Virus genome (UHGV): UHGV-1624697
Length of the DNA: 10,330 nt
Origin: a virus
Reading direction: 5' to 3' (one strand)
Each line of letters starts with the position of its first letter. The first letter of the stretch is position 1. The notes under the pieces are model-generated. The model was not told where the DNA came from, made no database searches, and was given only the letters and a program-made list of their open reading frames with translations. Positions 9,112 to 9,798 of the stretch are shown in pieces. The translations under genes and the position numbers were made by a program.

Positions 9112-9798
9112 ATGGATGATTTACATAATCCGATGGTCCGGGGCTTCTTTGACCTGTTAGCTAAGTCAGAAGGCACGGCAGGTAAAGGTGATAACGGGTA
9201 TAACGTCGCATTTGGCGGGGATACTACCGTTGGTTACGACACGCATCCGGGCCAGTATTACACCTTTACGCAGACGGACGGTAAGCAGAACAGAACGTCT
9301 GCCGCAGGGCGTTATCAGATAATTAAGCCGACATATGACAGTCTGGCGAAACGTCTGGGCGTGACTGACTTTTCTCCTGAGACACAGGACCGGATGGCGC
9401 TGGAACTGATACGGGAGAACGGCGCACTGGAGGATGTGAAACGTGGTGACTATGCCGCAGCAATAAATAAGCTGGGTGGCGTATGGGCCAGTCTGCCGTC
9501 CAGTACCGCGCCACAGCCGCGTCATTCTATGGTGGAATTACTGGGTAATCAGATGCCTGTTCAGCTTGTTAATCAGCGTGGCACACCGATGCTTGCCGCA
9601 CCGGAGAATGATTTTGAGCAGAATCATATGATGGGCTTCTTCGGAGCCGGGCATTCCCCTGCAATGCAGTCGTTGCTTACTAACGCACTGGCGAGGGTAA
9701 GTGAGGCGCGTAATGCGCTAGCCAGCGAGCGTCCATTTTTTGATGACTTGCCGATGGACCTTGATAACGACTTACTGGATTTAATCGACCGGGCATAA
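9112..9798 (+). CDS. Lytic transglycosylase, phage-lambda-R-like lysozyme domain (N-terminal ~150 aa) with a ~75-aa C-terminal extension; probably virion-associated
   Basis: ATG 9112 directly after the upstream stop (the track's 9082 start is an in-frame extension overlapping the previous gene). Motif blocks match lambda R as I recall it: FFDLLAKSEGT vs FLDMLAWSEGT (catalytic-Glu position, codon 9169-9171), GYNVAFGG vs GYDVIVGG, AGRYQII vs AGRYQLL, LGVTDFSPETQDRMALELIRENGAL vs LGLKDFSPKSQDAVALQQIKERGAL, VWASLPSS vs IWASLPGA. Stop TAA 9796-9798. Confidence 0.85.
   Translation: MDDLHNPMVRGFFDLLAKSEGTAGKGDNGYNVAFGGDTTVGYDTHPGQYYTFTQTDGKQNRTSAAGRYQIIKPTYDSLAKRLGVTDFSPETQDRMALELIRENGALEDVKRGDYAAAINKLGGVWASLPSSTAPQPRHSMVELLGNQMPVQLVNQRGTPMLAAPENDFEQNHMMGFFGAGHSPAMQSLLTNALARVSEARNALASERPFFDDLPMDLDNDLLDLIDRA

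What the first reader, a model, noticed from the sequence alone, without database searches (positions are those of the whole stretch)
9112..9798. Lambda-R-like lytic transglycosylase with a C-terminal extension and no lysis-cassette context
The N-terminal ~150 aa match phage lambda R (lytic transglycosylase) motif-for-motif, including the SEGT catalytic-Glu context. The protein is ~70 aa longer than lambda R, sits between hydrophilic virion-like ORFs and has no holin or spanin-like neighbour. That suggests a virion-borne peptidoglycan-penetration enzyme, with the C-terminal tail (ending in an acidic DDLPMDLDNDLLDLIDRA helix-like segment) as a possible virion-incorporation or partner-binding module.
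Basis: partly seen in the sequence, partly recalled or inferred. Interest (0 to 1): 0.6.

Follow-up and report, generated by a model that had tools for sequence, protein, structure and literature searches.

The report
Virion lysozyme with portable docking tail
This gene encodes a lambda-type cell-wall-cutting enzyme that sits among the DNA-injection genes of an E. coli phage-plasmid, not among its lysis genes. It carries a conserved, previously undescribed C-terminal tail that related phages attach to four unrelated wall-degrading enzymes in the same genomic position.

Summary
ORF 9112-9798 (228 aa) has a lambda-R/GH104 lytic-transglycosylase head covering aa 8-143 (1AM7/3D3D E=2.4e-24, Foldseek prob 1.0). 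Glu20 aligns with lambda Glu19. An ~85-aa extension follows the head.

The gene lies in a phi24B/GP4-like podoviral tail and ejection block, 4 nt upstream of a ~2,300-aa LPD38 'polyvalent' giant. In near-identical replicons, including the circular 60.5-kb E. coli plasmid CP061838, a complete holin-endolysin(PF00959)-Rz/Rz1 cassette lies ~8 kb downstream. So this enzyme is not the lysis endolysin.

New finding: a tail-only profile searched against 1.84 billion proteins recovers 25 real clusters. In all of them the tail is at the extreme C-terminus. The heads are GH104, SLT, M15 or M23, and one has no recognisable head. Wherever context is available, the gene sits directly upstream of the giant. 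Tails of unrelated heads are up to 68% identical, which indicates head swapping. The last 15 residues are the most conserved part of the protein. The tail has no Pfam, PHROG, PDB or GenBank-phage relative.

Best reading: an ejection-module wall-breaching enzyme whose tail docks it to a phage partner. Virion presence and the partner are inferred, not shown.

The parts
9112..9798 (+). Gene for the 228-aa two-module protein: GH104 head plus conserved C-terminal tail. The stop codon is included.
9133..9540 (+). Lambda-R-type (GH104) lytic transglycosylase head, aa 8-143. The catalytic Glu20 codon GAA is at 9169-9171.
   Evidence: PHROG hits. 45% identity to the N-terminal domain of Bordetella phage BB8 internal protein D.
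9547..9795 (+). C-terminal tail module, aa 146-228. Predicted beta-hairpin (151-162), then helices 167-178, 183-209 and 218-227.
   Evidence: Conserved in 28 homologues. A tail-only profile finds 25 real clusters with different heads. No PDB fold match. No Pfam or PHROG coverage.
9751..9795 (+). Terminal acidic amphipathic helix motif P-x-DLDxxLLDLIDRA-COOH, aa 214-228.
   Evidence: This is the most conserved segment: 69% mean pairwise identity against 62% for the head. The final 18 residues carry net charge -1 to -7, and -3 or more negative in 26 of 28 members. The tail lies at the extreme C-terminus in all 25 clusters.
9803..10330 (+). First 176 codons of the ~2,318-aa giant 'polyvalent' protein. 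It runs off the window and starts 4 nt after the GH104 stop.
   Evidence: 99.4% identical to the L001 giant N-terminus. The full protein has LPD38 and YkuD domains and an N-terminus related to the N4 vRNAP family PHROG. The phi24B homologue gp47 was detected in virions (preprint 10.64898/2026.04.10.717836).
8367..9110 (+). 247-aa hydrophilic protein of the ejection block. Its stop lies 1 nt before the GH104 start.
   Evidence: No family hit.
6164..7953 (+). Two adjacent paralogous putative ejection proteins (6164-6979 and 6994-7953).
   Evidence: Both match phrog_37635 at about 1e-34, and one weakly matches a 'DNA ejection' PHROG. Each has one moderately hydrophobic segment.
4080..5702 (+). 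Tail nozzle-like protein, 540 aa as called in relatives.
   Evidence: 8JOV_A 1.3e-34, six chains in that entry. phrog_511 1.7e-90. Related to Stx-phage and Ralstonia-phage proteins.
1504..2815 (+). Adaptor protein (1504-2196, SU10_adaptor) and the following 212-aa virion structural protein (2177-2815).
   Evidence: 8JOV_2 1.6e-09, 12 chains.

Best explanation
The gene encodes an entry-phase, virion or ejection-module peptidoglycan hydrolase. It is not the lysis endolysin.

The head (aa ~8-143) is a lambda-R/GH104 lytic transglycosylase with Glu20 as the catalytic acid. The ~85-aa tail is a portable docking module. Its free, acidic, amphipathic C-terminal helix most likely binds a phage-encoded partner. 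The leading candidate is the conserved N-terminal region of the ~2,300-aa LPD38 giant encoded 4 nt downstream. Another ejection protein or the portal are alternatives.

Proposed sequence of events: the enzyme is made late, is co-assembled with the ejection proteins and is expelled with them at infection. It then cuts glycan strands locally, so that the trans-envelope conduit and the giant protein can cross the wall. Lysis at the end of the cycle is carried out by a separate holin-endolysin-Rz/Rz1 cassette.

Shown: homology, fold, catalytic residue, gene context, a separate lysis cassette, tail conservation and head swapping.
Inferred: packaging into virions, the binding partner and the role in entry.
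For: Head:
- Matches 1AM7/3D3D at E=2.4e-24 and Foldseek probability 1.0.
- E20 is invariant in 28 members.
- The closest phage-database relatives by identity are virion-associated fusions: ZF40 tail fiber/lysozyme 48%, Ralstonia BOESR1 internal virion protein 45%, BB8 internal protein D 45%. Lambda-type endolysins score only 38-40%.

Context:
- The gene follows adaptor, nozzle and putative ejection proteins.
- It is followed within -4 to +10 nt by an LPD38 giant in L001-L006, L008, L010 and L013.
- Giant homologue gp47 of phi24B was found in virions by mass spectrometry and proposed to be an ejection protein.
- Lysozyme and LPD38 domains are hallmarks of phage-type polyvalent proteins that are injected with the DNA (PMC5512222).

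Separate lysis cassette: holin PF16931, holin PF05449, PF00959 endolysin at 1.4e-30, and a TM-anchored Rz-like gene with an embedded lipobox ORF. The complete 60.5-kb replicon CP061838 (97.6% nt identity) has exactly these two muralytic genes annotated.

Tail:
- The profile search gave 27 hits, of which 25 are real. All 25 are C-terminal.
- Pfam identifies the heads as SLT, M15_4 and M23, in addition to GH104.
- M15+tail, M23+tail and SLT+tail occupy the same slot upstream of a giant.
- The M23 tail is 64% identical to a GH104 tail, and the M15 tail is 68% identical to an SLT tail.
- The last 15 aa are more conserved than the catalytic head.
- Giants of tail-bearing lineages share an N-terminal basic motif, SPEWxNASLDRRxELYxxWK.

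Functional analogy: T7 gp16 residues 1-156 are a transglycosylase, and residues 157-228 are a 'molecular tape' that binds gp15 (PMC8954989).
Against: - There are no virion proteomics or activity data for this phage.
- The link between the tail and the giant N-terminus is only a correlation among related phages.
- One lineage (L008) has a GH104 next to an LPD38 giant but with a different C-terminus, so the tail is not obligatory for that pairing.
- The gene is on the same strand as the lysis cassette and probably in the same late transcription unit. Unpackaged enzyme could therefore also escape through holin lesions.
- Tail model confidence is only moderate (pLDDT 58-78).
- The tail shows no sequence similarity to the T7 gp16 tape.
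Confidence: 0.68

Rival explanations
1. The protein is an entry enzyme, but the tail is a substrate- or envelope-targeting module (peptidoglycan or periplasmic-component binding), like the cell-wall-binding domains shared by modular endolysins. It would not be a docking module for a phage partner.
For: A module shared by four different peptidoglycan-hydrolase heads is exactly what a wall-binding domain looks like. The tail is predicted to be a small hairpin-plus-helices domain.
Against: - No match to any Pfam wall-binding family or to any PDB fold.
- The tail is strongly acidic.
- It diverges fast between phage sub-lineages (23-35% identity), although Gram-negative peptidoglycan is nearly invariant.
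- It is restricted to one phage lineage and one genomic slot. It is absent from 50,697 GenBank phages and from about 78 other GH104 loci in IMG/VR. It is never seen on lysis-cassette endolysins.
- It always needs the extreme C-terminus.
Confidence: 0.15
2. The enzyme is virion-borne but sits outside the capsid, in or on the tail (nozzle lumen, plug or needle region). It would act as a tail-tip wall-digesting enzyme rather than as internal cargo ejected with the giant.
For: GH104 domains occur in external or tail parts elsewhere: the ZF40 tail fiber/lysozyme and the cyanophage A-1(L) baseplate hub 8KEA. The gene lies downstream of the nozzle gene.
Against: - It is separated from the nozzle by five genes of ejection-protein type.
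- It is tightly coupled to the giant, whose phi24B homologue is not visible in the tail reconstruction and is assigned to the capsid interior.
- The phi24B/GP4-type tail structures account for the tail density without such a protein.
Confidence: 0.15
3. It is an ordinary or auxiliary endolysin that helps lysis, and its position in the structural block is incidental.
For: GH104 is a classic endolysin family. Hundreds of lambda-type endolysins match at 38-40% identity. The gene is on the same strand as the lysis cassette and about 8 kb upstream of it. It has no signal or SAR sequence, so it would depend on a holin.
Against: - The genome has its own complete holin-endolysin-spanin cassette.
- The slot next to the giant is conserved across lineages down to 38-42% identity and across four head types.
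- A conserved 85-aa tail is unnecessary for a soluble endolysin.
- The nearest relatives are virion-protein fusions.
Confidence: 0.07

Closest known systems
Bacteriophage lambda R lysozyme (GH104 lytic transglycosylase; PDB 1AM7, 3D3D)
   Same: Same catalytic fold and motifs over aa 8-143, with 38-39% identity. The catalytic Glu aligns (E20 versus E19).
   Different: Lambda R is a 158-aa single-domain endolysin in an S-R-Rz/Rz1 cassette. This protein has an extra conserved 85-aa tail, lies in the ejection block, and its genome has a different, PF00959-type endolysin for lysis.
T7 gp16 N-terminal region (lytic transglycosylase 1-156 plus 'molecular tape' 157-228)
   Same: Same logic and strikingly similar size. 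A ~150-aa transglycosylase is followed by a ~75-aa partner-binding segment, and both belong to the ejection apparatus of a podovirus (PMC8954989).
   Different: T7 uses an SLT/GH23-type head fused to the 1,318-aa gp16. Here the head is GH104 and the protein is a separate polypeptide. There is no detectable sequence similarity in head or tail.
GH104 domains at the N-terminus of gp16-like internal virion proteins (Bordetella phage BB8 internal protein D; Ralstonia phage BOESR1 internal virion protein)
   Same: Closest sequence relatives of the head (45% identity, E=8e-33). They lie in the same functional position at the start of the largest ejection protein.
   Different: In those phages the domain is covalently fused to the large protein. 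Here a stop codon and a 4-nt spacer separate it from the giant, and the conserved tail replaces the covalent link. The tail is absent from those phages.
Phage-type polyvalent proteins with lysozyme domains (Iyer et al. 2017) and phi24B gp47 (LPD38 giant ejection protein)
   Same: The neighbouring giant carries LPD38, and a homologue is virion-borne. Lysozyme domains are a recurrent partner of such giants and are proposed to breach the wall at injection.
   Different: The lysozyme here is a stand-alone protein rather than a domain of the giant. phi24B and Skulduggery have neither a GH104 nor the tail in this region.
Modular endolysins of Gram-positive phages (swappable catalytic heads on a common binding domain)
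   Same: Same evolutionary pattern: unrelated catalytic heads (GH104, SLT, M15, M23) exchanged on a conserved C-terminal module.
   Different: Those common modules bind cell wall and sit in lysis cassettes. This module is acidic, lineage-restricted, at the extreme C-terminus, and found only in the ejection-gene slot.

Membership tests
GH104 / lambda-type lysozyme (lytic transglycosylase) | Significant sequence similarity to lambda R across the catalytic domain | tested here: met
   E=2.4e-24 to 3D3D/1AM7, aa 8-143 against 7-142. NCBI names the 96%-identical protein 'glycoside hydrolase family 104'. Pfam and NCBIfam HMMs miss it.
GH104 / lambda-type lysozyme (lytic transglycosylase) | Catalytic glutamate equivalent to lambda Glu19 | tested here: met
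   E20 in LAKSEGT aligns with E19 in LAWSEGT and is invariant in 28 homologues.
GH104 / lambda-type lysozyme (lytic transglycosylase) | Lambda-lysozyme fold | tested here: met
   The AF2 model (pLDDT 79) matches 3D3D with Foldseek probability 1.00, TM 0.74 normalised to the target, 141 columns.
GH104 / lambda-type lysozyme (lytic transglycosylase) | Transglycosylase chemistry (1,6-anhydro-MurNAc product) | not testable with these tools
   Needs muropeptide analysis of digests.
Canonical holin-dependent endolysin of a lysis cassette | Encoded next to holin and spanin genes | tested here: not met
   There is no TM-rich small ORF in the window. The neighbours are a 247-aa hydrophilic protein and the giant. 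The cassette, with its own PF00959 endolysin, lies ~8 kb downstream.
Virion-associated peptidoglycan hydrolases / podoviral ejection (internal virion) proteins | Encoded within the tail and ejection gene block, with a separate endolysin elsewhere in the genome | tested here: met
Virion-associated peptidoglycan hydrolases / podoviral ejection (internal virion) proteins | Physically present in purified virions and released at infection | not testable with these tools
   The only indirect evidence is that the neighbouring giant's phi24B homologue is virion-borne.
T7 gp16 family | Homology to the gp16 SLT domain or molecular tape | tested here: not met
   BLASTP against gp16 residues 1-300 gives a best E of 0.18. 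The resemblance is a functional analogy only.
Polyvalent-protein lysozyme domains (Iyer 2017) | Lysozyme domain is part of the giant polypeptide | tested here: not met
   It is a separate ORF in all loci examined, with a -4 to +10 nt junction with the giant's gene. All 25 tail-bearing clusters end at the tail.
Known cell-wall-binding or other described domains (for the tail) | Profile or fold match of aa 146-228 to a described family | tested here: not met
   No credible Pfam match (one sub-threshold Milton hit, 17.1 bits against a 22.3-bit cut-off) and no PHROG or NCBIfam coverage of the tail. Foldseek against PDB with the tail-only model gives a best E of 2.0. tblastn against 50,697 phage genomes gives no match at E<=1.

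The most novel reading that the evidence does not exclude
The ~85-aa tail, and in particular its free acidic C-terminal helix, would be a dedicated cargo-loading or ejectosome-docking signal of a phi24B/GP4-like group of podoviruses and phage-plasmids. It would be sufficient to recruit any enzyme placed upstream of it into the virion or the ejection complex through a defined site on the LPD38 giant or portal. That would be a natural 'plug-and-play' packaging tag, which evolution has already used to exchange GH104, SLT, M15 and M23 heads.
Probability: 0.35. Interest if true: 0.72.

Novelty: new variant of a known kind. Interest (0 to 1): 0.55.

Why it matters
Short-tailed phages must get DNA, and here a 2,300-residue protein as well, through the cell wall. 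Recent structural papers on N4 and phi24B state that the wall-degrading activity of their ejection machinery is missing or only guessed at.

This lineage shows one solution. It uses a small stand-alone hydrolase held to the ejection apparatus by a conserved tail instead of by a covalent fusion. The catalytic head is freely exchangeable.

If the tail is a docking signal, it gives a direct experimental handle on how ejection proteins recognise each other. The pairs to test are the tail against the giant N-terminus, the portal and the other ejection proteins. It could also be a possible tag for loading foreign proteins into phage particles.

The finding also flags an unstudied ~60-kb podovirus-type phage-plasmid that is present in many E. 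coli isolates, including a Shiga-toxigenic strain.

Tried and rejected
- Pfam and NCBIfam scans of the protein gave no lysozyme hit. The only hit was a sub-threshold 'Milton' match, treated as noise.
- Megablast of the window against GenBank phages and against 5,426 complete E. coli genomes found nothing. PLSDB finally gave one record.
- The exact sequence is not on record in the contig index.
- A strict and a relaxed back-translated C-terminal motif were scanned in 185,579 GTDB species genomes. They gave 0 and 28 matches. All 28 were chance hits when checked with the tail HMM.
- The tail alignment was too variable for the search for related loci. The whole-protein alignment returned mostly ordinary GH104 loci, of which only L014 and L015 carry the tail.
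- Scans of IMG/VR for SLT+tail and tail-only proteins, and of JGI metagenomes for tail-only proteins, found nothing.
- The four 'tail-only' proteins (80-120 aa) sit on 1.2-2.2-kb contigs. One shares a cluster with a 253-aa muramidase. They are probably fragments, not evidence for free-standing tails.
- P0120 and P0122, high-scoring hits of the tail profile, are tandem-repeat and ankyrin-like proteins and are spurious.
- Fold searches found no relative of the tail.
- There is no similarity between the tail and the T7 gp16 tape or the BB8 internal protein D beyond the head.
- Rfam found nothing in the window.

Full report
**1. The observation**

The + strand ORF 9112-9798 encodes 228 aa. The upstream gene's TGA ends at 9110, so the ATG at 9112 is stop-start coupled. 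An alternative ATG at 9082 would add 10 residues, but close relatives are called at 228 aa.

Residues 8-143 align with residues 7-142 of bacteriophage lambda lysozyme (3D3D/1AM7) at E=2.4e-24. LAKSE20GT lies over lambda's LAWSE19GT. Most residues of the other shared motifs (GYN, GG, HP, AGRYQ, DFSP..QD, WASLP) are invariant or nearly so in an alignment of 28 full-length homologues.

An AlphaFold2 model (mean pLDDT 79) hits 3D3D first, with Foldseek probability 1.0, TM 0.74 on the target and 38% identity. PHROGs assigns the head to 'tail fiber protein/lysozyme' (5e-48) and 'endolysin' (2.6e-37) families. Pfam and NCBIfam miss it.

The protein is 70 aa longer than lambda R. No neighbouring ORF in the window is holin- or spanin-like.

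**2. Where the window comes from**

The window has no near match in 50,697 GenBank phages or in complete E. coli genomes. It is 97.6% identical to the circular 60,552-bp 'plasmid' pSTEC648_2 of E. coli STEC648, CP061838. It is 94-98% identical to ~60-kb contigs from other E. coli assemblies.

The 96%-identical protein cluster has 47 members from dozens of E. coli assemblies. Among the members listed, the longest contig is nearly always 60-63 kb (one of 53 kb).

CP061838 carries ParB, a RelE/HigA pair, ArdA and a DUF927 primase-helicase, together with a full set of phage structural and lysis genes. It is therefore a phage-plasmid.

Its tail module is of the phi24B/GP4 type:
- The 230-aa ORF is an SU10-type adaptor (Pfam 5.8e-14). 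It matches the 12-chain protein of PDB 8JOV.
- The 540-aa ORF matches the 6-chain (nozzle) protein of 8JOV at 1.3e-34. Its distant relatives are in Stx-converting, Ralstonia and Vibrio podoviruses.

**3. Context of the gene**

The order is the same in the window and in relatives whose GH104 protein is 96%, 56%, 51%, 45% and 42% identical (L001-L006), and in L010 (about 54% over the head only). It runs:
- adaptor
- a 212-aa structural protein
- a 423-aa protein
- the nozzle
- a 150-aa protein
- two paralogous ~255/320-aa proteins
- a ~250-290-aa protein
- GH104+tail
- a 2,300-2,530-aa giant
- two small genes
- holin(s)
- a PF00959 lysozyme (in L006 a 172-aa protein with no Pfam hit on record; L010 has no lysis genes within the locus)
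- a ~165-aa protein

The giant has three recognisable features:
- an LPD38 domain (3.8e-14);
- a YkuD L,D-transpeptidase-fold domain above Pfam's cut-off;
- an N-terminal region related to the PHROG that holds N4 virion RNA polymerases.

LPD38 and lysozyme domains are, according to Iyer et al. 2017, restricted to phage-type 'polyvalent proteins' delivered with the DNA (PMC5512222). The LPD38 giant gp47 of phi24B has been found in purified virions and proposed to be an ejection protein (bioRxiv 10.64898/2026.04.10.717836).

The cassette downstream of the giant is complete:
- two holin-family proteins;
- a soluble T4/P22-type endolysin (PF00959 1.4e-30; phrog_7 4e-46);
- a TM-anchored Rz-like protein with an embedded ORF carrying a lipobox (LTAC).

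The gene immediately downstream is the giant, and the lysis cassette has its own endolysin.

**4. The tail**

Residues ~146-228 are conserved throughout the family. P149, A162, P164, E169, A199, P214, D218 and I225 are invariant. The last 15 residues, P-x-DLDxxLLDLIDRA-COOH, are the most conserved part of the whole protein: 69% mean pairwise identity against 62% for the catalytic head. The final 18 residues carry net charge -1 to -7, and -3 or more negative in 26 of 28 members.

The models predict a beta-hairpin, two helices and a terminal helix at moderate confidence. Neither the full model nor a tail-only model has any structural relative for this part in the PDB or BFVD. No Pfam or PHROG family credibly covers it. 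tblastn of the tail against all GenBank phages finds nothing even at E<=1.

**5. The decisive comparative result**

A profile of the tail alone (A2) was scored against 1.84 billion representative proteins. It gave 27 hits at E<=1e-3. Two are repeat-protein artefacts. In the other 25 the match ends at, or within four residues of, the C-terminus.

Their N-terminal parts are not all GH104. Pfam identifies SLT/GH23 transglycosylase domains in seven, a Peptidase_M15_4 in one and a Peptidase_M23 in one. One 337-aa protein (P0129) has no recognisable head.

Where context could be retrieved, these proteins occupy the same slot:
- M15+tail lies between ejection-type genes and a 2,910-aa LPD38 giant, with a PF00959 lysozyme further on (L013).
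- M23+tail follows a GNAT-like gene and two ejection-type genes. It precedes an ORF whose N-terminus is homologous to the giants (L012).
- SLT+tail is followed 1 nt later by an ORF of at least 631 aa, homologous to giant N-termini (L122).

Tails attached to unrelated heads can be very similar. M23 against GH104 is 64% identical over 75 aa, and M15 against SLT is 68%. So heads have been exchanged recently on a tail that tracks the phage lineage.

Conversely, the tail is missing from about 78 other GH104 loci in IMG/VR. It is also missing from phi24B, Skulduggery and BB8.

**6. Mechanism**

The simplest reading has two parts. The slot upstream of the giant is reserved for 'a peptidoglycan hydrolase of any chemistry'. 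The tail is what makes such an enzyme part of this phage's ejection apparatus.

Four features fit a docking peptide that inserts into a pocket of a co-evolving phage partner:
- the requirement for the extreme C-terminus;
- the high conservation of the terminal amphipathic acidic helix;
- the rapid divergence of the rest of the tail between sub-lineages;
- the restriction to one phage lineage.

The best candidate partner is the giant's N-terminal region. It carries a conserved basic motif (SPEWxNASLDRRxELYxxWK, about aa 65-100) in every tail-bearing lineage examined. This is a correlation, not a demonstration.

The architecture parallels T7 gp16. In gp16, residues 1-156 are the transglycosylase and residues 157-228 are a 'molecular tape' that binds gp15 (PMC8954989). 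It also parallels phages such as Bordetella BB8, where a GH104 domain 45% identical to this head is fused to the N-terminus of internal virion protein D. Here the covalent link appears to be replaced by translational coupling plus a docking tail. There is no sequence similarity between the tail and the T7 tape, so this is analogy, not membership.

**7. Rivals**

(a) The tail could be a wall- or envelope-binding module. Head swapping is equally expected for that. Its acidity, lineage restriction, rapid divergence, absence from any lysis-cassette endolysin and lack of similarity to known binding domains all argue against it.

(b) The enzyme could sit in or on the tail rather than inside the capsid. 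I cannot exclude this. Coupling to the giant favours the interior.

(c) It could be an auxiliary endolysin. The gene is probably co-transcribed with the lysis genes, so a moonlighting contribution is possible. The conserved slot, the tail and the dedicated endolysin make this unlikely as the primary role.

**8. Novelty and score**

A virion- or ejection-associated transglycosylase is a known kind of thing, and GH104 domains in virion proteins are known. Three things appear to be undescribed:
- the stand-alone format;
- the ~85-aa tail with no relatives in Pfam, PHROGs, the PDB or GenBank phages;
- the evidence that this tail is a portable module carrying four unrelated wall-degrading heads in one conserved genomic slot.

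No paper in the searchable library mentions the replicon or such a module. I rate it a new variant of a known kind. It is of moderate interest because it offers a concrete, testable answer to where the wall-degrading activity of phi24B/N4-like ejection systems comes from, and a candidate protein-loading tag.

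Noticed in passing
whole window; CP061838.1 (L125, L126): The window belongs to a ~60.5-kb circular E. coli replicon, pSTEC648_2, deposited as a plasmid. It combines ParB, RelE/HigA, ArdA, a bactofilin-like protein and a DUF927 primase-helicase with a complete podovirus (phi24B/GP4-type) structural and lysis gene set. That makes it a phage-plasmid. Near-identical proteins occur in dozens of E. coli assemblies, mostly on 60-63-kb contigs, yet none is in the complete RefSeq E. 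coli genomes searched.
   Followed up: partly
window 7957-8367 (+): A 136-aa ORF with an HExxH motif (LVHECAHAAFH), possibly a minimal zincin-like metallopeptidase. It matches phrog_1365 (unknown function) at 7.9e-23 and has no Pfam hit. It is present in the window and in L001, L002 and CP061838, but absent from the same slot in L003-L006. Polyvalent giants are often processed by zincin peptidases (Iyer 2017).
   Followed up: partly
window 6164-6979 and 6994-7953 (+): Two adjacent paralogous genes. Both match phrog_37635 at about 1e-34, and one weakly matches a 'DNA ejection' PHROG. Each has one moderately hydrophobic segment. They are likely the channel-forming ejection proteins of this phage.
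   Followed up: partly
window 5710-6162 (+): A 150-aa gene between the nozzle gene and the ejection genes. Its counterpart in L012 has a weak GNAT (Acetyltransf_1) hit, and Pseudomonas phage Skulduggery has an 'acyl-CoA N-acyltransferase' in a similar position. This suggests an acetyltransferase-like gene conserved inside an ejection module.
   Followed up: no
window 8367-9110 (+), esp. 8592-8715 and 8892-8917: The 247-aa protein upstream of the lysozyme contains a (Thr-Gly)6 run encoded by an ACTGGT repeat of 4.3 copies. It also contains a stretch where nucleotide identity to the closest relative breaks down (98% before, 94% after). This is a local hypervariable or recombination spot.
   Followed up: no
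L001 10692-17648 (giant; its first 176 codons are window 9803-10330): The giant has a YkuD L,D-transpeptidase-fold domain (aa 1104-1217, above the Pfam cut-off, with an SLGCINV cysteine motif). That would be a possible second wall-active module acting on peptide stems. It also has a glycine-zipper-rich region (aa ~250-480) weakly resembling the pore-forming toxin Tse5 (E=0.014).
   Followed up: partly
L008 9229-10750; window 9051-9107: In a more distant lineage, an M23 peptidase and a GH104 lysozyme lie side by side upstream of an LPD38 giant. Both end in a different shared C-terminal motif (DF[FY]..A...W..YY[GS]). The window's 247-aa protein ends in a loosely similar aromatic motif (DLYHKAMNTHYGAYGSWGW). 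This may be a second type of C-terminal docking signal.
   Followed up: no
L001 19789-20298 with embedded 19967-20266: The lysis cassette of the close relative ends with a TM-anchored Rz-like gene. It contains an out-of-frame embedded ORF with a lipoprotein box (ILTAC), which is a lambda-style embedded Rz/Rz1 spanin pair. None of the libraries recognised either gene.
   Followed up: partly
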